Shown here: one piece after another, positions 2,494 to 16,569 of the stretch
How the letters are laid out: every line of letters begins with the position of its first letter
Numbering within the stretch: position 1 is the stretch's first letter
Assembly (NCBI RefSeq): GCF_035503745.1
Contig: NZ_DATJTC010000002.1
Location: 14,736 to 78,735, forward strand
DNA: 64,000 nucleotides
Source: Dyella sp.
GTDB lineage: Bacteria; Pseudomonadota; Gammaproteobacteria; Xanthomonadales; Rhodanobacteraceae
Reading direction: 5' to 3'
The notes under the pieces: model-generated
What the model saw: the letters and a program-made list of their open reading frames with translations, nothing else
Told to the model about the DNA's origin: nothing
Databases searched by the model: none
Program-made: the position numbers and the translations under genes

Positions 2494-5136
2494 TCAGCGC
2501 TGCAGCACGTTGCCGATGATCTCGCCCAGGTTGCGCGATAAGTCCTGCCGCCGGGCCAGATCCTCAAGCGCCGCATGCGCCGCTTCCCGCCGAACCGGCT
2601 CCAGCCGTTGCCACCCGTTGAAGGCCGTGGCCATGCGCGCGGCGATCTGCGGGTTAAGTGCATCCAGCGCGGCCAGCCGTTCGGTCAGCCAGCGATAACC
2701 GGCGCCATCGTCGCGGTGGAAGCCACTGGGATTGTTGCTGGCGAACGCGCCGATCACGGCGCGCGCGCGGTTGGGATTTTTCAGCGTGAAGGCCGGATCG
2801 CTTTCCAATGCCTTGACGATGGCGAGCGCCGGCTCGCCGGGCACCTGCGCCTGCACGGCGAACCATTTATCCAGCGCGAGCGGGTTGTCGGCATAACGCT
2901 GGCGGAAATCCGAAAGCGCCGCCGCGGCCTGCGCCGCGCGATCGCGGACCAGTACGCCCAGTGCGGCGAGGCGGTCGGTCATGCCGCTGGCCGTTGCGTA
3001 TTGCTGCGCCGCCAGCGCATGCGCGCCGTCGGCATCCACCAGGGCCAGCAGTTCGAGCACGCGGCGTTTGAGCCGGCGCCGGGCCTGGCTGTCGGCATCG
3101 AGCGACTGGCCGGCCTGCGATGCCAGTGCGCGATAGCGCGCAAGCAATGCCGGCGCGCCGATGTGTTTGGCCAGATGATGCTGCAACGCCTGGCGTTGCG
3201 CGTGAATGCTGACCGGATCCACTTCGGCCTGGCGATCGGCGAATTCGATTTCGCCGGGCGGTGTAAGCAGATCGGCCAGCAGGGCATCGTCGATCGTGTC
3301 CTGCTCGAACAACACGCCCAAGGCATCGCACCAGGCTTTGCATGCCTGCGTTTCGCCCTCGCGCAAGCTTTCGAACGCAAGCACAGCCAGCTGCTGGCCG
3401 GCCTCCCAGCGATTGAAGCCATCCGCGTCGTGCGTCAACAGCAGCGCCAGTTCGGCCGGCGAGTGGTTGTATTGCAGCACCACGGGCGCTGAGAAGTCGC
3501 GCAGCAACGAAGGTACCGGGTGGCTTGCGACATCGCGGAAAACAAGCTGCTGCGATGCTTTGTCGATCACTACGACCGTTTCCGTGCCGCCGTCGCTTCC
3601 CTCCAGGTGCAGCGGCAGCAACTGTCCGTTGCGATCGAACAGCGATAGCTTCACGGGAATCGGCACGGGTGCTTTCTCCGGCTGTCCGGCCGTGGCGCGC
3701 GTGTGTTGCGAGAGGGTCAGCGTGTATTGGCGTTTGGCCGCGTCGTAGTCGCCGTGCGCGTGCAGATGCGGCGTACCGGCTTGCGCATACCAGGCCAGGT
3801 ACGGCATCAAGTCGGTGCCGTTGGCATCGCCTAGCGCGCCGAGGAAATCCTCGATCGTCGCCGCGCTGCCGTCGTGGCGTTCGAAATAGGTGTCCATGCC
3901 GCGCCGGAAACCTTCAGGTCCAAGCCGGCCCGCGAGCATGCGCACCAGTTCGGAGCCTTTCTCGTAGACGGTGGCGGTGTAGAAGTTGTTGATCTCCCGG
4001 TACTCGGCCGGACGCACCGGGTGCGCCAGGGGGCCTGCGTCTTCGGGAAACTGCGTGCGGCGCAGCAGCGAGACGTCTTCGATGCGCTTGAGCGGCGCGG
4101 AGTTCATGTCCGCGGAAAACTGCTGCTCGCGGAACACGGTAAGGCCCTCCTTCAACGACAGTTGAAACCAGTCGCGGCAGGTCACGCGGTTGCCGGTCCA
4201 GTTATGGAAATACTCGTGGGCGACCACCGCTTCGACGGCGCGGTATTCCTCGTCGGTGCTGCTGTCAGGATCGGCCAGCAGGTACTTCGCGTTGAAGATG
4301 TTCAGGCCCTTGTTTTCCATGGCGCCCATGTTGAAGTCGTGCGTGGCCACGACGTGGAATACATCCAGGTCGTAGTTGCGACCATAGTTGCGCTCGTCCC
4401 AGCGCATCGAGCGTTCCAGCGCATCCAGCGCGTAGTGGCAGCGGTCGATGACGTTCGCTTCGGACCACATCACCAGTTTTACCGCGCGACCGTCCGCCGC
4501 AAGGTAATCGCGCTGAATGCTTTCCAGCCGCCCGGCCACCAGCGCGAACAGGTAGCTCGGTTTGGGATGCGGATCGACGAAGCGCGCCCAATGACGCCCC
4601 TCCGGCAACTCGCCGCTGCCATCGGGATTGCCGCCGGCCAACAGCACGGGAAAGCGTGCGCGATCGGCACGCAGCGTCACAGTGAAACGGGCGAGCACAT
4701 CGGGACGGTCCGGGAAAAAAGTGATGTGACGAAAGCCTTCCGCTTCACATTGGGTCAGAAGGAAGCCGCTCTCGCGCGAACCGGACAGGTACAGGCCCTC
4801 CAGCGTGGTATTGGCGGCCGGCTTAACCCGTACGCGGGTTTCCAGCACGCTGCCATCGTGTGCGCCATCCACTTCCAGCCCGTTGTCGTGGATGCGGTAG
4901 CTGCCCGTATCGAGCGGGCGGCCGTCCAGCGAGATCGCCAACAGCTCCAGGCCCTCGCCATCCAGTCGCAGCGGTTGGGGCTGGGTGGGATCGTGGCGCA
5001 CGTTGAGCCGGGCGCTGATCTCGGTGCTGTCGATGCCCAGGTCGACGTCCAGTTCGATGGCGTCCACGCTCCATGCGGGTCGGCGGTAGTCGTGCAGGCG
5101 GATGGGGGCGGGGGCAGTTTCGTTGGCGAGGGTCAT
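2494..5136 (-). CDS. pepN: aminopeptidase N (M1 family)
   Basis: FLLTQCEAEGFR, FNMGAMENKGLNIFN, HEYFHNWTGNRVTCRDWFQLSLKEG, C-terminal NPNRARAVIG; start taken at MTLANE. Confidence 0.96.
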   Translation of the reverse strand: MTLANETAPAPIRLHDYRRPAWSVDAIELDVDLGIDSTEISARLNVRHDPTQPQPLRLDGEGLELLAISLDGRPLDTGSYRIHDNGLEVDGAHDGSVLETRVRVKPAANTTLEGLYLSGSRESGFLLTQCEAEGFRHITFFPDRPDVLARFTVTLRADRARFPVLLAGGNPDGSGELPEGRHWARFVDPHPKPSYLFALVAGRLESIQRDYLAADGRAVKLVMWSEANVIDRCHYALDALERSMRWDERNYGRNYDLDVFHVVATHDFNMGAMENKGLNIFNAKYLLADPDSSTDEEYRAVEAVVAHEYFHNWTGNRVTCRDWFQLSLKEGLTVFREQQFSADMNSAPLKRIEDVSLLRRTQFPEDAGPLAHPVRPAEYREINNFYTATVYEKGSELVRMLAGRLGPEGFRRGMDTYFERHDGSAATIEDFLGALGDANGTDLMPYLAWYAQAGTPHLHAHGDYDAAKRQYTLTLSQHTRATAGQPEKAPVPIPVKLSLFDRNGQLLPLHLEGSDGGTETVVVIDKASQQLVFRDVASHPVPSLLRDFSAPVVLQYNHSPAELALLLTHDADGFNRWEAGQQLAVLAFESLREGETQACKAWCDALGVLFEQDTIDDALLADLLTPPGEIEFADRQAEVDPVSIHAQRQALQHHLAKHIGAPALLARYRALASQAGQSLDADSQARRRLKRRVLELLALVDADGAHALAAQQYATASGMTDRLAALGVLVRDRAAQAAAALSDFRQRYADNPLALDKWFAVQAQVPGEPALAIVKALESDPAFTLKNPNRARAVIGAFASNNPSGFHRDDGAGYRWLTERLAALDALNPQIAARMATAFNGWQRLEPVRREAAHAALEDLARRQDLSRNLGEIIGNVLQR

Positions 5137-7918: not shown

Positions 7919-8151
7919 AGGCAGGTTTGGACTTTGAGGGGTTCCGAGTACCTAGGGCAGCCTGGTCGTTCAATGGCTCGATCCACGCTTTATTCAACGC
8001 CAGTGCGAGCGGCAGTTGCGACGCGGACGGCAACCAGGTGCAGGGCATGGGCGGATTAGGTATCCAACGGCAGTTAGGTTGCGACGTGATCAATCGCTTG
8101 TGCAAACCATCGACAACTCCAATGACACGAACTGACAGGGATATCAAATGA
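7915..8151 (+). CDS. hypothetical protein (78 aa), ATGA-coupled on both sides
   Basis: Start overlaps the upstream stop and stop overlaps the Rhs start; no clear RBS; may be a frameshifted continuation of the upstream ORF. Confidence 0.3.
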   Translation: MKAGLDFEGFRVPRAAWSFNGSIHALFNASASGSCDADGNQVQGMGGLGIQRQLGCDVINRLCKPSTTPMTRTDRDIK

Positions 8152-11100
8152 CTCGTATTTTTGGACTGATTCTCGGTGCGCTGTTGGCTGTTTCTTGCAG
8201 CGCCATTTCGATAAACGCGCATGCCGCCGATCAATCTGGTACGTATGAGACTCAAGGTGAGGCATATGCAGCGTGTAATGGGTTTGTTGCGTGGTTGAAT
8301 TCGCACGGACCTCTGAGTCCACCTTACTACTACACGTGCGAGGATGTGGTTCGCGGATCTTCTCCGCCTAGTCCACCTTGTCTAGGCAAGCCATTTGAAG
8401 GCGTAAATTACAGCTATGCCTATACGGTTTATTCCGAGCCAAATCATGACGATGGTGGTTGGGCGGGTTGGTACTTCTGGTGCGCTCCTACGTTTAGCCC
8501 AAGCAAGAACAATGGCTGCTCCTGTAGCGTAGCGGGTGACCCCATCAATCTGGGTACCGGTAACGAATACGAGGATCAAAAGGATTACTCATCCAGTGAC
8601 TCTCTACGGTTCGAACGCTACTACAACAGCAGCAATTCGATTACCCCGACCAACATCGGCGCGCAGTGGCTGGATAATTACGACCGCAGCATTCAATATC
8701 AGACCAGCACCACCCCTGTCGCGACTGTTTTTCGACCCGATGGGAAAGAGTTTGCCTTCCAGAAGGTCAATGGGGTGTGGGCCGCTGATCCAGATGTCAG
8801 CGATACGCTCACTGAGAGCGACAATGCCCTAGGCCAGGTTCAAAGCTGGACATATTTCGATGCCCAGACGCAGCAATACGAAAATTACAACGCAGGCGGC
8901 GCGCTAACCTCGATCGTTGATCTGAGCGGTCAAGTTACAACACTGACGTATAGCGATGGGACGACACCCACGACCATCGCACCGATGGCCGGGTTATTGA
9001 TTACCGTCACGGCACCCAGCGGGCGACAGCTCCAGTTCGTTTACAACGCCAGTAGCCAGATCACGCAGATCACCCTGCCTGACGGCGGCACGCTTGCGTA
9101 TGCATACGACACGTCTGGAAACTTGACTCAAGTGACCTATCCGGATGGCCGTACGCGCGTCTACAAGTACGACGAAAGTGGCAATGCCCCATCGGGGTCA
9201 CCGAATCTTTTGACGGGCATTATTGATGAGGCGGGGCAACGCTATGTGGACATCCACTACGACAGCCAGGGTCGTGCCATGTCGTCGCAGATAGGAGGCA
9301 TAGCCAATCTCACTCAGGTGGCTTACAACTCGGATGGAACGTCTGCCGTTACCTATCCGAGCGGAGTCCAAACCACGATTGGATTTGCAACCCCCTATGG
9401 CCGAGCGCAGATCGCGTCAGTGAGCCAGCCTTGCGGACCGGGTTGTGATCAGACGGCGGCGGCGCGTACGTATGACGCCAATGGCAATCCAGCGAGTGCC
9501 ACGGACTTCAACGGCAACGTCACTACCACCACCTACGACGTCAACGGCCTGCTCGATCAACAGATCGACGCGTCCGGATCTCCGGCCCAGCGCACCACCA
9601 ACTTCACCTGGAACACCACACTGCGCGTACCGCTGACGCGCACCGTGCTCGATGCCAACGGCAACACAGTGAGCAACACGCAATGGGTCTACAACGCCAC
9701 CGGCCAGACCCTGGCCCGCTGCGACATCGACCCGGCCAACAGCGCCGATAGCGGCTACAGCTGCTCGAACACCGGCGCGGTGCCGGCCGGCGTGCGCCGC
9801 CGCACCTACACCTACTGCACCGCCGTCGGAAGTAACTGCCCGCTGGTGGGCCTGATGCTCACCGCCACCGGCCCCCGTACCGATCTCACCCAGACGACGA
9901 GCTACAGCTACTACACCAGCAGCAGCACGACGGGTTGCGGCACGCCCGGCGCCGCCTGCTACCAGCCCGGCGATCTCTACCAGGTCACCGACGCCCTGGG
10001 CCACGTCACCACCATCGCCTCCTACGACGCCGACGGCCGCATCACCCGCCTCACCGACGCCAACGGCGTCAACACCGATCTCACCTACACCCCGCGCGGC
10101 TGGCTCGCCTCGCGCACGGTGGGCGGGGCCACCACTCGCTTCACCTATACCGCCTACGGGGCCGTGCAAACCGTCACCGATCCCGATGGCGTCACCACCA
10201 CCTACGGCTACGATGCCGCCCATCGCCTGACCACCATCACCGATGCCCTGGGCAACACCATCCAGTACACCCTGGATGCCGCCGGCGACAAAACCGCCGA
10301 ACAGGTCTATGACTCGTCGGGCACCTTGCACCAAAGCCTCACCCGCACCTTCAACACCCTGGGCCAGCTCACCAGCGTGGTCGATGGGCTTAGCCACACC
10401 GTGTTCAACGCCAGCGCCACGGGCAGCTACGACGCCAACGGCAACCTGATCCAGAGCAGCGACGGCCTGGGCATCGCGCGCCAATTGGGCTACGACGCCC
10501 TGAACCGCCTGGTGCAGACCCTGGACAACTACAACGGCAGCGACCCTGCAACGAAGAACACCACCACCCAGTACAGCTACGACAGCCTGGACCGCCTCAC
10601 CCAGGTCACCGACCCCAGCAACCTCGCCACCACCTACAGCTACGACGGCCTCAGCGACGCCACCGGCCAGGTGAGCCCCGATACGGGCACGACCAGTCGC
10701 ACCTTCGATGCCGCCGGGAATGTGCTGACACGGACCGACGCCAAGGGCATCACCGCCAGCAACACCTACGACGCACTGGATCGGCTTGTCAGCACCCGCT
10801 ACCCCGACAGCACGCAGAACGTTACCTACAGCTACGACGATCCCAACGGCACCACCGGCTGCAGCACCAGCGATCCGGTCGGCCGGTTGACGCGGATCAT
10901 CGAAAGCGCCGTCACCACCGTCTACTGCTACGACGCCCGCGGCAACGTGATCCAGAAACAACAGATCACCAGCGCCGGCACCGACACCACCGGCTACGCC
11001 CTCACCAACGCCGGCCGCCTCAGCGGCATCGTCTACCCCGACAGCACCCTGGTCAGCTACAGCCGGGATGGCGATGGGCGCATCACCGGCATCAGCGTGA

Positions 11101-12614
11101 CGCCGCCCAGCGGCAGCGCCGGCACGGCGGTGAGCGCGGTCACCTACCAGCCCTTTGGCCCGGTCAGCGGCTACACCCTGGGCAACGGCCAGCAGATCGC
11201 CCGCACCTACGACGCCAACTACCGGCTGACGGACCTCACCAGCCCCGCGTTCACCCTGCACGTGGCACGCGATGCGATGGGCGACATCACGGCCATCGGC
11301 AACAGCCCCGGCGCCAGCCCGGCGACGGAGACCTATAGCTACGACCCGCTATACCGCCTCACGGCGGTGACGGAGGCCAACGGCACGACGCTGGAAAGCG
11401 TCACCTACAACCAAACGGGTGATCGCCTGACCAAGACCGGCAGCGGCCTCGCTACCGGCACCTACAGCTACACCCCGAACACGCATCAACTCATTGCCAC
11501 GGGCAACGCCACACGAACGGTCGATGCGGACGGCAACACCACGGCGATCAGCGAAGCCGGCAGCACGTATGGCTTTGGGTACAACGACCGCAACCGCATG
11601 AGCACCGCGCAACTGGGTGGGAGCACGGTTGCCAACTACACCTACAACGCGCTGAACCAGCGCATCCAGAAGGTTGCCGGCAGCAACGCCGAGCGTTACG
11701 ACTACAACGAAGGCAGTGGGATACTTGCCGAATACGGTGCTACCAACCGGGACTATATCTGGATGGATGGCATTCCGGTGGCCAACGTGGACACGGCCAA
11801 TGGCACAAGCACGATCGCTTACGTCACCGCCGACCAGTTAGGCACGCCACGCGCCATTGCAGACAGTTCCGGAAACACCGAGTGGCAGAATGCCTACCAG
11901 GGTAATCCGTGGAACGAAGTAGCGCCGACGAGTAGCGGTTATGTCTATAACCTTGGGTTCCCAGGGCAGTATTTCGACGCCGAAACGGGGCTCAGTTACA
12001 ACGTCAATCGTGATTACGACTCAAGCACTGGGCGGTACGTGCAAAGTGATCCGTTTGGTCTGAATGGTGGTCTAAGTACGTACGCATATGCCATCAGTGA
12101 CCCACTGAGTACATTTGACTCTCTCGGTCTCCGCCCATTGACCGCCGGTGAAGTTGCGATGCTTACTCCGATTTTCAACAATACAGTAAATTTTTCGCAG
12201 GTCGATATCGAATCGGGCACAGATGGTGATTTTCGCGCAGCCATACCACTGGCTAACGGTGATGCCGTAACGATAAACAACACGATTCACTTTCCATCAT
12301 CGCAGTACCTGCCGGACTTCTCACAGGGTGACTTGAGTGATCAGGCGTGGCTTGCACACGAAGTGACACACATTTTTCAGCACCAAAATGAACCGGGCTA
12401 CACATACGGAAAAGCCATGAGAGAAACGTGGAAGTATGGCAAGCATGTCTACGACTACTCGCTGACAGAACACAAATGCTTCACTGATTACCGATACGAG
12501 CAGCAAGCTGCGATAGTCCATGACTACTTCGTTGCCTTGCATCAAGGAACTCCTGATCTGAGCGGATTTGAAAATTTGCTTGGTCCTATGGGCCTTGGCA
12601 TGAACCACAATTAA
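8148..12614 (+). CDS. rhs: Rhs/YD-repeat polymorphic toxin with N-terminal signal peptide, DUF6531-like domain and C-terminal HEXXH metallopeptidase
   Basis: Signal peptide MTRIFGLILGALLAVSCSAISINAHA; GDPINLGTGN...FERYYNS; many YD repeats; core YNLGFPGQYFDAETGLSYNVNRDYD...DPFGL...DSLGL; C-terminal AHEVTH and YEQQA. Confidence 0.93.
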   Translation: MTRIFGLILGALLAVSCSAISINAHAADQSGTYETQGEAYAACNGFVAWLNSHGPLSPPYYYTCEDVVRGSSPPSPPCLGKPFEGVNYSYAYTVYSEPNHDDGGWAGWYFWCAPTFSPSKNNGCSCSVAGDPINLGTGNEYEDQKDYSSSDSLRFERYYNSSNSITPTNIGAQWLDNYDRSIQYQTSTTPVATVFRPDGKEFAFQKVNGVWAADPDVSDTLTESDNALGQVQSWTYFDAQTQQYENYNAGGALTSIVDLSGQVTTLTYSDGTTPTTIAPMAGLLITVTAPSGRQLQFVYNASSQITQITLPDGGTLAYAYDTSGNLTQVTYPDGRTRVYKYDESGNAPSGSPNLLTGIIDEAGQRYVDIHYDSQGRAMSSQIGGIANLTQVAYNSDGTSAVTYPSGVQTTIGFATPYGRAQIASVSQPCGPGCDQTAAARTYDANGNPASATDFNGNVTTTTYDVNGLLDQQIDASGSPAQRTTNFTWNTTLRVPLTRTVLDANGNTVSNTQWVYNATGQTLARCDIDPANSADSGYSCSNTGAVPAGVRRRTYTYCTAVGSNCPLVGLMLTATGPRTDLTQTTSYSYYTSSSTTGCGTPGAACYQPGDLYQVTDALGHVTTIASYDADGRITRLTDANGVNTDLTYTPRGWLASRTVGGATTRFTYTAYGAVQTVTDPDGVTTTYGYDAAHRLTTITDALGNTIQYTLDAAGDKTAEQVYDSSGTLHQSLTRTFNTLGQLTSVVDGLSHTVFNASATGSYDANGNLIQSSDGLGIARQLGYDALNRLVQTLDNYNGSDPATKNTTTQYSYDSLDRLTQVTDPSNLATTYSYDGLSDATGQVSPDTGTTSRTFDAAGNVLTRTDAKGITASNTYDALDRLVSTRYPDSTQNVTYSYDDPNGTTGCSTSDPVGRLTRIIESAVTTVYCYDARGNVIQKQQITSAGTDTTGYALTNAGRLSGIVYPDSTLVSYSRDGDGRITGISVTPPSGSAGTAVSAVTYQPFGPVSGYTLGNGQQIARTYDANYRLTDLTSPAFTLHVARDAMGDITAIGNSPGASPATETYSYDPLYRLTAVTEANGTTLESVTYNQTGDRLTKTGSGLATGTYSYTPNTHQLIATGNATRTVDADGNTTAISEAGSTYGFGYNDRNRMSTAQLGGSTVANYTYNALNQRIQKVAGSNAERYDYNEGSGILAEYGATNRDYIWMDGIPVANVDTANGTSTIAYVTADQLGTPRAIADSSGNTEWQNAYQGNPWNEVAPTSSGYVYNLGFPGQYFDAETGLSYNVNRDYDSSTGRYVQSDPFGLNGGLSTYAYAISDPLSTFDSLGLRPLTAGEVAMLTPIFNNTVNFSQVDIESGTDGDFRAAIPLANGDAVTINNTIHFPSSQYLPDFSQGDLSDQAWLAHEVTHIFQHQNEPGYTYGKAMRETWKYGKHVYDYSLTEHKCFTDYRYEQQAAIVHDYFVALHQGTPDLSGFENLLGPMGLGMNHN

Positions 12615-12628
12615 GAGAGGGACGATTG

Positions 12629-13027
12629 ATGAAGTTCATTTCAAAGGTCTGCGTTGCCCTGTTATTTGTCGTCTTACTTTGCGGGCTCTCATCTCGATTC
12701 GCTATCGTGGTATCTCAGTCACAAGGTCAAGCACCCTCTTTTGTAATCAAAAGGACAAGCCATGGCCTACTTGGTGAAAGCGTTGAAATCAACTCGTTCT
12801 CCGTAGTCAAGAAGAATGACGCCGGGCAGTGGGACTATAAGCATCCCGTCTGGGCATTCGATCTTCCTCCTGGCACGGGAAAAGAGTTGTCAAAAGTCAA
12901 TTATGGCCAAGTCCCTGCGGGTTTCATTGAAAGAACAAAGGCATTAAAGCTAACTAGTGGTATTACATATTTGGTGCTTGGTTTTGGTCTTGGATCTGAT
13001 GGTTCTGTCCAATTCGTTGCCAAATGA
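12629..13027 (+). CDS. candidate cognate immunity protein, exported
   Basis: 14 bp after the Rhs stop, GAGG RBS, N-terminal hydrophobic stretch, low GC. Confidence 0.7.
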   Translation: MKFISKVCVALLFVVLLCGLSSRFAIVVSQSQGQAPSFVIKRTSHGLLGESVEINSFSVVKKNDAGQWDYKHPVWAFDLPPGTGKELSKVNYGQVPAGFIERTKALKLTSGITYLVLGFGLGSDGSVQFVAK

Positions 13028-13045
13028 TCGCGCCACAGGGTGCTG

Positions 13046-13074
13046 AAAAAAAAGCGCCATACGGGCGCTTTTTT
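13046..13074. terminator. bidirectional Rho-independent terminator
   Basis: A-tract AAGCGCC-ATACG-GGCGCTT T-tract. Confidence 0.75.
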
Positions 13075-13131
13075 GTTTTGGAACATCCGATTCCCGGGGG
13101 CAATACTTCGATGCAGACGTAAGCTCCCCCG

Positions 13132-13431
13132 TCAAGCGGACATTTCAGAAGTAGAACTTTTGGCGTAGTGATCGCGATATTCGGCCGGCGTCATAGCGCC
13201 GAGTGCATCATGGGGACGTTGCTCGTTGTAGTCGATGAGGAACTGCCACGTGGCCTCGCGCACGTCGTCGAGACGGGTGAAAAGGTATTGATCGAGCACC
13301 TCTTCACGATAGGTGCGGTTGAAGCGTTCGATGTAAGCGTTCTGGTTCGGCTTTCCCGGCTGGGTGTACCGGATGGCCATGCCATGCGCCTTGGCCCATT
13401 GCGTGAACACTTCGCCAAGGAACTCCGGCCC
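13132..13431 (-). pseudogene. IS3 orfB 3' part (GPEF...GKPNQNAYIERFNRTYREE)
   Basis: Integrase-core C-terminal motifs; separated from the 5' part by IS110. Confidence 0.9.
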
Positions 13432-13523
13432 ATAGTACATCTGGAAGTATGGTTAGCAGATGGGCAGTCACCGTCATTGAGATCATCCTGAGGGTTCTCA
13501 CACGCCTTAGGAGTTCAACGACG

Positions 13524-14801
13524 ATGACTGCCCCTACTGATGCTACGCCCGTTGCCACCTGGGTGGCGATTGATATCGCCAAACGCCACCATGCGGTGTT
13601 GATCGAAGTGCCGGATGAGAAGCGCCGACGTTTTAGGATGGCTAGTTCATCTGAAGATCACCAAGCATTGGTCGCATTGCTCCACTCATTACCTCAGCCC
13701 ATCCGGGTCGCCATGGAGCCGACTGGTGACTGTCACCGCACTTTGGCCTATCGGCTGGTTGATGAAGGTTTTGACGTTTTCCTCGTTTCATCGATTGCCG
13801 GGGCTCGCTATCGAGAGGCCATGTTCAACTCGTGGGACAAGAACGATCCCAAGGACGCAAGCGTGATCATGGCCTTGCTCAAGCAGGGGATGACGATGCG
13901 TTATGTCGATCCACTCGTAGCGGGGCATCATGGCTTGCAGGAGCTGTCCAAAACGTATTACCAGATTAGCCTTGCTCGCACACGGCTGCAGCACAGCCTT
14001 CTAACCCATTACCTTCCACTGTATTTTCCCGAGATGGAGCGCTACTTCAACACGTCTCATGCAGATTGGTTTGTTCGCTTCCTGCTCCGGTTTCCCACTG
14101 CCGCTTCGGTTCATCGACTCGACCGCGAAACCTTCCGGCAACAAGCCTGGGAACTGGTGGGAAGAAAGGTGAATAAGACAACGTGGCTAAGCGAATTGTA
14201 CGATTGTGCAGGCCACAGTATCGGTTTACCCGTTGCTGAGGACTCACTGGCGATCACGACCTTTCGCCTTCAACTTGAGCGATACCAAGTACTGATTGAG
14301 CAGCGCGACGCTTTGTCCGCACAAGCCCATCAACTTTTGAATGGCAACCCCGATTATGACGTCCTGTGTTCTCTCCCAGGCGTGGGACCAGTCATCGCGT
14401 TGACCATCTTGGCTGAGGCCGGCGACATGCGTCGCTTTGCTCATCATCGACAATTTCTCAAGTACTGCGGACTGGACCTGGCCAAGTCTCAATCAGGCGA
14501 ACGCCGCGGTCAGGAGCGCTTGTCCAAACGAGGCAATGCGAGACTCCGTTTTGCCTTTTGGTTTGCGGCCACTATCGCTGTGCGGATGCGTGAAAACAGC
14601 TTCCGAAACAAGTATGAGCGCTATATCCAAAATGACCCGAAAAATGCTGATCGAAAACGTAAGGCGCTCACCGCCGTCGCTGCCAAAATGGCGCGCGTCG
14701 CTTATGGATTAGTCAAGCATCAGACCCTTTACCGCTGTTACTTCGAGACCGCTTTACCCCGTGGATCGATCCCGCTCAGTAGGGCCGTTGGGACCGCTTA
14801 G
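13524..14801 (+). CDS. IS110 family transposase/recombinase (425 aa)
   Basis: AGGAG RBS; DEDD RuvC-like motifs AIDIAK, MEPTG, KNDPKDA; C-terminal LPGVGP...SQSG...SKRGNARLR. Confidence 0.95.
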   Translation: MTAPTDATPVATWVAIDIAKRHHAVLIEVPDEKRRRFRMASSSEDHQALVALLHSLPQPIRVAMEPTGDCHRTLAYRLVDEGFDVFLVSSIAGARYREAMFNSWDKNDPKDASVIMALLKQGMTMRYVDPLVAGHHGLQELSKTYYQISLARTRLQHSLLTHYLPLYFPEMERYFNTSHADWFVRFLLRFPTAASVHRLDRETFRQQAWELVGRKVNKTTWLSELYDCAGHSIGLPVAEDSLAITTFRLQLERYQVLIEQRDALSAQAHQLLNGNPDYDVLCSLPGVGPVIALTILAEAGDMRRFAHHRQFLKYCGLDLAKSQSGERRGQERLSKRGNARLRFAFWFAATIAVRMRENSFRNKYERYIQNDPKNADRKRKALTAVAAKMARVAYGLVKHQTLYRCYFETALPRGSIPLSRAVGTA

Positions 14802-15026
14802 GATCCTGTAGATAATGCTCGGACCTTCCACGGGTTCTCCATGCTGTTTTAGGCACGTTCGAGGCCGCTTCGGACCTCGTGTTCACTATGGTTAGATTAG
14901 GAGACCTTGACGACGTGGAAGCCCATGGGACATCGCGGATGAAGGTTGCGGTAGTTGTCCAACAGACGCTAAAAGCGGCTGCGCATTGCTGTAACCTGAT
15001 TACGTACTTGACTCCAGAGTTAGCAC
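14802..15026 (+). ncRNA. putative bridge/seek RNA in the IS110 downstream non-coding end
   Basis: 225-bp non-coding end; nested stems enclosing an internal loop with segments matching the element's donor junction. Confidence 0.55.
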
Positions 15027-15587
15027 GTTGTCCGTTCGTAGCACTTGAGGCAACGCACGCTCCTGGGCGATACGCTCGAAGATGCGCACCAAGCGTGCCG
15101 ACGTGATCGAGGTATCGATCTCGATATGCACAGCCTCGCGATTAAAGTCATCGACGATGTTGAAGGTACGCAATGGGCGCCCGCAGATCAGGGCATCCAG
15201 CATAAAGTCGGCCGACCACACCATGTCCGGGCGCTCCGGCACGTACAAGGGCACACGTTCACGCTTGGGCAAGCGCCGCGTCGCGGCCCGGCGCAGGTTG
15301 AGTTTCATGTCACAGTACACCCGGTAAATACGCTTGTGGTTCCATTGCGGATGGGTTCTTTCAAGGATCTGGCAACACTTGTCGAAGCCGCGGCTAGGCT
15401 TGGCCTCGATCAACTTGGACAATGCCGCGATAACCTCAGCGTCCCGCACCGTCCAATCCAATGGCGGCGCGTACCACGCCGCGCGGGACAGGCCGACGCA
15501 GTCGCAGGACCGGCGCAAGGGGCGTGCATGCACCTCAACGAGAAAACGCACCGCCTCGCGCTTCTGCGCCGGCCCTACAATTTTTTT
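15027..15587 (-). pseudogene. IS3 orfB 5' part
   Basis: HTH_21-like region, WNHKRIYRVY, WSADF, RTFNIVDDFNRE, QVLRTDN; begins at the A7 slippery site 15581-15587. Confidence 0.9.
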
Positions 15588-15841
15588 GCGATCAGGTCCT
15601 TCATCGCCGCATTGTCCAGCGCCAGCTCGGCATACATTCGCTTGAGCTTGGCGTTCTCCGCTTCCAGCTCCTTGACCCGTTTCAGGTCCGAAGCGTCCAT
15701 GCCCCCGTACTTCGATTTCCACTGGTAGTACGTCGCCGAGCTGATCCCCGCCTGCCGGCACAAATCCTTTACCGGTACACCGGCATCACCCTGCTTGAGA
15801 ATCGAGACGATCTGCGCCTCGCTGAATTTGGATTTCTTCAT
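15575..15841 (-). CDS. IS3 orfA
   Basis: MKKSKFSEAQIVSILKQ...GISSATYYQWKSKYGGM...LKRMYAE; GGAGG RBS. Confidence 0.93.
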   Translation of the reverse strand: MKKSKFSEAQIVSILKQGDAGVPVKDLCRQAGISSATYYQWKSKYGGMDASDLKRVKELEAENAKLKRMYAELALDNAAMKDLIAKKL

Positions 15842-16030
15842 GGAACCTCCTAGCGGAAAAGATGCCAGAAAGTTCTACTTGCTGTGTGTCCAGGAACTGG
15901 GGGAGCTTACGCAGAGACCGGGCTCGAATACAACGGCGCACGCTATTACGACTCGGCGTCGGGACGCTTCCCGCAAGCCGACCCGATGCACATCAAACTG
16001 CTGGGCCAGTTCGGCCGGCGACAGTGATCC

Positions 16031-16212: not shown

Positions 16213-16569
16213 ATGAACATTGTGAAGAATTTTCTGATATCCGGTGTCGTGATTTTTTCTGCATGTGTCGCACCTGGAGATGGCGTCAAGGCAAAGAGCG
16301 GCTATGCAGCCGCTGCACCTGTGATTAAAGCACTTGACGCGTATCATCAGGTCAATGATGCCTATCCCTCTTCGTTGAATCAGCTAGTTCCAAAGTTCAT
16401 TGCCGGCGATAGGTTGGTAGCTACCACGCCAGATAGAAAAGTAACGCCGTTTAAGTATCGACAAGTCGATAACGGTTATGAGCTATCGTTTTCTTATACG
16501 GGTCCCGGTACGAACCAATGTGTGTACAGGGAAAGTGCCAAAGCGTGGAAATGCTACGGCGCTTACTAG
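16213..16569 (+). CDS. lipoprotein with GspG/pilin-like helix; orphan immunity candidate
   Basis: Lipobox-like IFSAC; IKALDAYHQVNDAYPSSLNQLV; C-terminal Cys pair; low GC. Confidence 0.65.
   Translation: MNIVKNFLISGVVIFSACVAPGDGVKAKSGYAAAAPVIKALDAYHQVNDAYPSSLNQLVPKFIAGDRLVATTPDRKVTPFKYRQVDNGYELSFSYTGPGTNQCVYRESAKAWKCYGAY

What the first reader, a model, noticed from the sequence alone, without database searches (positions are those of the whole stretch)
13420..15045. IS110 inserted exactly in the catalytic DNGPEF motif of an IS3 transposase
The junctions split GAC AAC / GGG CCG GAG TTC, one codon after the second catalytic Asp, with no TSD. Known: IS110 elements are sequence-specific and RNA-guided, and some are reported to target conserved IS3 transposase codons. 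Inference: an IS that parasitises and inactivates another IS family. The hexamer TAGCAC ends the element (15021-15026) and recurs 18 bp away in the target (15039-15044).
Basis: partly seen in the sequence, partly recalled or inferred. Interest (0 to 1): 0.6.

Follow-up and report, generated by a model that had tools for sequence, protein, structure and literature searches.

The report
RNA-guided IS targeting transposase codons
A small RNA-guided jumping gene sits in the codons next to a catalytic aspartate of another jumping gene's transposase, and its relatives do the same across many bacteria; the habit is already published for an unrelated element (ISEc21), but this lineage's target and guide RNA were not found in the papers searched.

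Summary
Confirmed. A 1,595-bp intact IS110-family element (13434-15028; 425-aa transposase, 52% identical to ISfinder's ISMex12) splits an IS3 orfB in its D-N-G-P-E-F motif, on the opposite strand. Of 113 distinct reconstructed sites of relatives, 106 read D-N-G, in IS3, IS481 and IS30 transposases. A predicted bridge RNA lies downstream and overlaps the transposase 3' end (about 14758-14910). It has an IS621-like two-loop layout with covarying stems. Its donor guides follow the element's ends. Its target guide changes when relatives retarget to D-H/Q-G (136/136 concordant, but only 3 independent changes). G:U wobbles would let it read both Asp and both Asn codons. Corrections: the cut is inside the Asn codon; a 2-nt core (A/G-T) is involved, with one shared T; the TAGCAC repeat is chance (1 of 129 loci). 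Targeting of this Asp is published for ISEc21 (2024), and this scan noted similar nestings on other DNA. This clade is a separate lineage (opposite strand, different junction, 3' RNA), and Durrant et al. list no bridge-RNA location for its ISfinder members. A bulged distal guide reading the Glu codon is plausible but unproven. All RNA function is inferred; there is no experiment.

The parts
13434..15028 (+). IS110-family element, 1,595 bp (equally 13433-15027, because one T is shared by the two junctions)
   Evidence: a 98.9%-identical 1,595-bp copy in another IS3 (L109). Single copy in this assembly.
13524..14801 (+). DEDD recombinase/transposase, 425 aa; motifs IDIAK (16), AMEPTG (63), NDPKDA (107), KSQSG (321) intact
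   Evidence: start chosen from RBS and homolog lengths
13432..13433 (+). Left copy of the 2-nt core (A-T), inferred to come from the target Asn codon
   Evidence: Left junction G-T 92, A-T 47, C-T 3, T-T 1; differs between near-identical copies
15027..15028 (+). Right copy of the core (G-T), invariant, inferred to belong to the element
   Evidence: 67/67 with a search that allowed A or G; 98/101 with an anchor using no target letters
14758..14910 (+). Predicted bridge RNA (ends approximate); its 5' part overlaps the last transposase codons
   Evidence: Three stems: 90.7% of cells paired, 18 of 21 pairs with two-sided changes, slid controls 51% or less; no relevant Rfam match
14781..14788 (+). 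Left target guide (core part GCCGT, 14784-14788)
   Evidence: Matches target NCCRT; GCC codon 110/110 vs 39% Ala usage; becomes GCCCT in D-Q-G-targeting relatives
14775..14777 (+). Candidate distal guide CTC, proposed to read the Glu codon across a 3-nt RNA bulge
   Evidence: Covaries with target position -7 (z 8.0; C/C 99, G/G 8, discordant 10); CTC in 97/110 vs 21% Leu usage; only 2 independent changes
14811..14818 (+). Right target guide GATAAT plus handshake bases
   Evidence: 447/448 positions pair with G:U allowed; position 4 vs flank 136/136 concordant
14852..14858 (+). Left donor guide (matches the element's right end)
   Evidence: 345/402 identical vs 239 shuffled, maximum 259
14885..14891 (+). 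Right donor guide plus handshake GG (complementary to the left end and the target CC)
   Evidence: 315/345 vs 256 shuffled; ACT/GCT/AAA track left-end types AGT/AGC/TTT
13462..13533 (+). Left-end hairpin covering the RBS and start codon
   Evidence: Inverted repeat I6; mean P(paired) 0.81 over the first 9 coding nt in 98 left ends
15008..15017 (+). -35-like TTGACT and a 5-bp subterminal repeat arm (partner 13441-13445)
   Evidence: Seen in the sequence. A circle-junction promoter is inferred; its -10 is weak.
13118..15911 (-). Host IS3-family element (1,199 bp once the IS110 is removed), 13-bp terminal IR, 4-bp TSD CAGA
15029..15575 (-). IS3 orfB 5' half (HTH_21, rve) up to the second catalytic Asp
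13132..13433 (-). IS3 orfB 3' half (rve_3)
15575..15841 (-). IS3 orfA (HTH_Tnp_1)

Best explanation
This is an IS110-family bridge-recombinase element of the ISMex12/ISRel25/ISYps2 cluster. Its 3'-encoded bridge RNA programs insertion into the antisense strand of the Asp-Asn-Gly codons at the second catalytic Asp of integrase-core (IS3, IS481, IS30) transposase genes. Shown by comparison: target consensus, orientation, RNA stems, and covariation of four guide segments with target and donor. Inferred from IS621 and ISEc21: the element circularises, a junction promoter transcribes transposase plus RNA, the top strands are cut 3' of the core T and exchanged, and handshake bases pair with the new partners. 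G:U and G:T wobbles at third codon positions make the guide indifferent to synonymous codons, so one guide reaches transposases only 22-78% alike. The insertion splits the host transposase. The likely benefit is a ubiquitous, dispensable landing site that travels on mobile DNA (inferred).
For: Many relatives are split at the same OrfB residues 183/184. 47/48 and 106/113 sites read D-N-G; an anchor using no target letters gives 98/101. 81 of 93 rejoined flanks give a continuous OrfB match, and most of the rest are rve/IS481 genes. RNA stems covary. Donor guides follow the ends. The right target guide switches with D-H/Q-G targets in 136/136 cases, over 3 independent tree changes including a reversion in L139. 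The layout maps onto IS621's LTG/RTG/LDG/RDG, core and handshake scheme (PMC11208158). Catalytic motifs are intact.
Against: There is no experimental evidence for the RNA or for mobility. The main-clade target guides are nearly invariant, and 3 independent changes cannot reach significance (p 0.25). Shuffle tests ignore relatedness. The lone window RNA is not unusually stable (z -0.15). The 8-nt core motif has 399 sites in this genome, so it alone does not explain the near-exclusive presence in IS genes. Off-target sites exist (L012, L033, L065).
Confidence: 0.88

Rival explanations
1. Protein-directed or structure-directed site preference. The transposase recognises CCRTTRTC or a feature of IS DNA, and the matches in the 3' region are end-maintenance signals rather than guides.
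For: No RNA was observed here. Target-guide changes rest on 2-3 independent events. A structural layer of specificity is reported for ISPpu10 (bioRxiv 10.64898/2026.03.19.712850, abstract only).
Against: A single base about 200 nt inside the element tracks the flank in 136/136 cases, including among roughly 86-90% identical transposases (L139 vs L133/L140). Synonymous codons in the guide are frozen.
Confidence: 0.06
2. Recognition is only the 8-nt motif, and the concentration in IS genes comes from selection: insertions in host genes are purged, and IS3::IS110 composites spread as units.
For: There are 399 motif sites in this genome and 9 with the distal YTC, against one IS site. Off-target insertions exist. 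The same composite recurs in many S. maltophilia genomes.
Against: There are more than 100 different host transposases from at least three families, so these are independent insertions. Purging alone is unlikely to give about 95% IS sites, since most genes are dispensable (general knowledge). The distal base covaries with the target. This rival concerns how long the recognised site is and is compatible with RNA guidance.
Confidence: 0.3
3. Chance nesting of one IS in another, or an assembly artefact.
For: Only one copy of each element in this assembly.
Against: The same codon, strand and junction occur in more than 100 independent sites.
Confidence: 0.01

Closest known systems
ISEc21 (IS110 family; Siddiquee et al. 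2024, PMC11187229)
   Same: RNA-guided insertion at the codons around the second Asp of the IS3 DDE motif, without a target duplication.
   Different: 358 vs 425 aa; BLASTP E 0.021; a joint clade is rejected, marginally (AU p 0.04). ISEc21 lies in the same orientation as IS3 orfB and inserts between Asp and Gln, with an upstream RNA. This element is antisense, inserts inside the next codon and has a 3' RNA.
ISMex12 / ISRel25 / ISYps2 cluster (ISfinder, IS110 group)
   Same: ISMex12 is 52% identical, falls in the same 100/100 clade, has the same RNA layout, and sits at the same D-N-G site (L082/L083).
   Different: Durrant et al. 2024 Supp. Table 5 leaves the bridge-RNA location blank for all three. 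No paper found describes their target. ISRel25 and ISYps2 were not examined here, and ISfinder's own entries could not be read.
IS621 bridge RNA system (PMC11208160, PMC11208158)
   Same: Two loops in the order LTG-hairpin-RTG, then LDG-hairpin-RDG; 2-nt core ending in T; handshake bases next to the core; D-E-D-D plus Ser; short subterminal repeat.
   Different: The RNA is 3' of, and overlapping, the transposase gene instead of in the left end. The first core base is free in the target. The contiguous left-guide match is short, with a possible bulged distal segment.
IS1111 group and ISPpu9
   Same: RNA downstream of the transposase gene. ISPpu9 is an IS110-group precedent with a right-end RNA.
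   Different: The transposase is 425 aa rather than 330-350 aa, the subterminal repeat is only about 4-8 bp, and it does not group with IS4321/IS5708.

Membership tests
IS110 family (bridge recombinases) | PF01548 + PF02371 domains with D-E-D-D and Ser | tested here: met
IS110 family (bridge recombinases) | No terminal inverted repeats, no DDE-type TSD, short core at the junctions | tested here: met
IS110 family (bridge recombinases) | Structured non-coding RNA with segments matching target and donor | tested here: met
   Comparative only:
IS110 family (bridge recombinases) | RNA expressed, bound by the recombinase and required for insertion; circular intermediate with junction promoter | not testable with these tools
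   -35-like TTGACT present and -10 weak; needs experiment
ISEc21 group | 345-385 aa transposase clustering with ISEc21 | tested here: not met
   425 aa; E 0.021; AU p 0.04
ISEc21 group | Guide RNA in the upstream non-coding end; insertion in the sense of IS3 orfB | tested here: not met
   Guides downstream; antisense insertion
ISEc21 group | Target at the second Asp of the IS3 DDE motif | tested here: met
   1-2 nt from the ISEc21 site
IS1111 group | RNA in the right end, right end longer than left | tested here: met
   Right end about 227 nt vs left end 90 nt
IS1111 group | Subterminal inverted repeats of 7-17 bp | tested here: not met
   5 bp in the window; mostly 4-8 bp in relatives
IS1111 group | 330-350 aa transposase in the IS1111 clade | tested here: not met
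   ISMex12 is listed as IS110 group
ISMex12 cluster (IS110 group) | Transposase clade, end architecture and target shared with ISMex12 | tested here: met

The most novel reading that the evidence does not exclude
This clade evolved, independently of ISEc21, a codon-aware bridge RNA. A discontinuous left guide (a distal trinucleotide across a 3-nt bulge) plus wobble pairs read the protein motif D-[N/H/Q]-G-x-[E/Q] whatever the synonymous codons, which lets one RNA home into the catalytic core of at least three transposase families and be retuned between motif variants. The one-sided core inheritance (target base always left, donor base always right) would record that the top strand alone decides the product in nature.
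Probability: 0.45. Interest if true: 0.62.

Novelty: new variant of a known kind. Interest (0 to 1): 0.42.

Why it matters
The headline (an IS110 aimed at the IS3 catalytic Asp) is published. What this adds is a second, apparently independent lineage on the same site from the opposite strand, which points to conserved transposase codons as a repeatedly chosen niche. It also supplies a target and a bridge RNA for an ISfinder cluster for which a published model listed none, probably because the RNA starts inside the transposase gene (inference). If the bulged distal guide is real, bridge RNAs can read non-contiguous sites, which bears on specificity in bridge-recombinase design. The junction asymmetry gives a natural test of top-strand-only integration, an open question (bioRxiv 10.1101/2025.10.25.684509; 10.64898/2026.08.31.748434).

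Tried and rejected
TAGCAC as a functional repeat: rejected (1/129 loci; altered in the intact IS3). Guide in the left end as in ISEc21 or IS621: rejected; the conserved left-end feature is a hairpin over the start codon. Identity with ISEc21: rejected. Other copies of either element in this genome: none. An exact uninterrupted allele of this IS3 in metagenomes: none, so AAT vs AAC before insertion is not settled directly; the 94%-identical intact copy has AAC. Rfam: nothing relevant. Folding the window RNA alone was uninformative. The first pair count used a mistyped structure and was redone. Donor-guide counts had some regex mis-hits and were redone. Junction regexes contain target letters, so invariance there is partly built in; searches are the less circular checks. 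The distal-guide test kept only rows with T at the anchor position. Middle positions of the left guide covary only weakly (z 3-4), and L109 inserted without matching them. Papers naming ISMex12 or ISRel25: none; the ISYps2 paper gives no target. The tree of distant IS110s has long branches and no IS621 row, so deeper placement is unresolved.

Full report
Observation. The + strand carries an IS110-family transposase gene (PF01548 and PF02371; NF033542 at 224 bits against a cut-off of 140). It is 425 aa from the ATG at 13524, with the D-E-D-D and Ser motifs intact. It is flanked by the two halves of an IS3 orfB on the - strand. Removing 1,595 bp restores an open OrfB reading VLRTDNGPEF and a 1,199-bp IS3 with 13-bp terminal repeats and a 4-bp duplication. 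An intact, gap-free, 94%-identical IS3 exists in a congeneric genome. Each element is single-copy in this assembly. G+C is 0.54 for the IS110 against 0.64 for the window.

Is the site specific? Relatives at about 50-81% identity were fetched from genomes, plasmids and metagenomes. OrfB matches break at the same residues, 183/184, again and again, always antisense, in host transposases only 22-78% like the window's. Of 48 distinct rejoined sites from genomes, 47 match CCRTTRTC. In the larger set, 113 distinct sites read D-N-G 106 times, D-H-G 4, D-Q-G 2 and D-H-A once. Those regexes contain target letters, so I repeated the right junction with an anchor that uses element sequence only: 98 of 101 read G-T followed by TRTC (91) or GRTC (7). 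81 of 93 rejoined flanks give one continuous OrfB match. Most others are IS481-like or other rve genes, and some left flanks are IS30 transposases. Clear or likely off-target sites are L012, L033, L065 and L216. A 98.9%-identical copy of this element sits in a different IS3 at the same motif (L109).

Exact junction. The right junction is G-T in 67 of 67 loci where A was allowed. The left junction is G-T, A-T, C-T or T-T (92, 47, 3, 1). It differs between near-identical copies (L025/L027 at 99.9%; window vs L109), and A goes with lower flank G+C (0.53 vs 0.60, p 0.0005). The left base is therefore the target's third codon position and the right G is the element's. The cut falls inside the Asn codon, one T is shared, and the window's IS3 probably read AAT before insertion. 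The caveat is that the intact relative has AAC and no exact empty allele was found. This fits a 2-nt core cut 3' of its T, as in IS621 (PMC11208158), with the product following the top strand. The TAGCAC repeat is unique to the window among 129 loci and is chance.

The guide RNA. The left end holds a hairpin over the RBS and start codon, conserved across 98 left ends, and no guide. The conserved guide-like segments lie from the last transposase codons into the right end. Three stems are supported by two-sided changes in 18 of 21 pairs, with 90.7% of cells paired against 51% or less when slid. Between them lie four segments in IS621 order. The left target guide (14781-14788) copies NCCRT. The right target guide (14811-14817) pairs with the right junction at 447 of 448 positions when G:U is allowed; its two U's face the third positions of the Asp and Asn codons. 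The left donor guide copies the right end (345/402 vs 239 shuffled), and the right donor guide complements the left end (315/345 vs 256), switching with left-end types AGT, AGC and TTT. The bases next to the core in both right guides match the partner DNA, as IS621's handshake guides do. Where the left guide is coding, its Ala codon is GCC in 110 of 110 genes against 39% usage.

Natural retargeting. A subclade and one separate lineage insert at D-H-G or D-Q-G. Position 4 of the right guide is A with a T flank 126 times and C with a G flank 10 times, with no exception. On a transposase tree these are 3 independent changes, all concordant, including a reversion (L139); three cannot reach significance (p 0.25). 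All four targets with C or T at the first core base have a left guide ending CCT, though four such guides sit at A/G sites.

Unexplained specificity. The 8-nt motif occurs 399 times in this genome; adding YTC four bases upstream (the Glu codon) leaves 9 sites, and 42 of 48 targets have it. The RNA has a conserved CTC three bases further from the core than contiguous pairing would put it. Its third base covaries with target position -7 (z 8.0; C/C 99, G/G 8, discordant 10), and it is CTC in 97 of 110 genes although CTG is the commoner Leu codon. That suggests a bulged distal guide, but it rests on 2 independent changes, and flank conservation also follows from the targets being homologous genes. 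Selection against insertions in host genes probably contributes.

Comparison with what is known. Siddiquee et al. 2024 showed experimentally that ISEc21 targets the codons around the second Asp of IS3 transposases (PMC11187229), so the concept is known. ISEc21 is 358 aa, barely alignable (E 0.021), in the sense orientation, inserts between Asp and Gln and has an upstream RNA. A clade joining it with this group is rejected marginally (AU p 0.04, long branches). The nearest named element is ISMex12 (52%), which shares the site and RNA layout. Durrant et al. list ISMex12, ISRel25 and ISYps2 as IS110 group with no bridge-RNA location, and no paper found gives their target. A right-end RNA in an IS110-group element has a precedent in ISPpu9. 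This scan noted similar nestings before, including two look-alikes of this element; those notes are unchecked and were not used as support.

Verdict. It is a new variant of a known kind: an apparently convergent, codon-tolerant bridge-RNA clade with a broader host-gene range. Gene disruption is shown. Whether it is permanent is open: excision would be scarless, but copy-out models leave the donor in place. A benefit to the element is inferred. Interest 0.42.

Noticed in passing
window 13118-13130 and 15899-15911: The IS3-family host ends in 5'-CG...CG-3' rather than the usual TG...CA (usual form from my own knowledge), with a 4-bp duplication. Relatives L090, L094 and L095 agree.
   Followed up: partly
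window 8148-13117 and 15912 onward: The IS3 sits in an orphan Rhs core remnant downstream of a 1,488-aa Rhs gene (C-terminal eCIS_core-like domain) and a putative immunity gene (12626-13027). Another relative (P0165) also lies next to Rhs genes.
   Followed up: no
window 13462-13480 / 13515-13533: A hairpin that sequesters the transposase RBS and start codon, conserved with differing sequences across the clade; probably translational repression.
   Followed up: partly
window 4873-4887 (+) and 16468-16482 (-): Two unoccupied matches to the extended target motif in non-IS genes: natural decoy sites.
   Followed up: no
window 14822-14829 with 14758-14765 or about 14914-14920: The 3' arm of the first RNA stem can also pair with a conserved downstream segment (133 vs 122 of 135 loci; no chance control run): a possible alternative fold.
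   Followed up: partly
L121-L132: A 78-80%-identical element sits in one IS3 next to psiE in many Stenotrophomonas maltophilia genomes.
   Followed up: partly
L018, L065, L133-L143: The subclade retargeted to D-H/Q-G has a much longer left end (about 250-410 nt) of unknown content.
   Followed up: no
L054, L055, L074, L077: Copies associated with IS30-type transposases. L055 shows a rejoined target next to a left end lacking its first bases, possibly an aberrant excision product.
   Followed up: no
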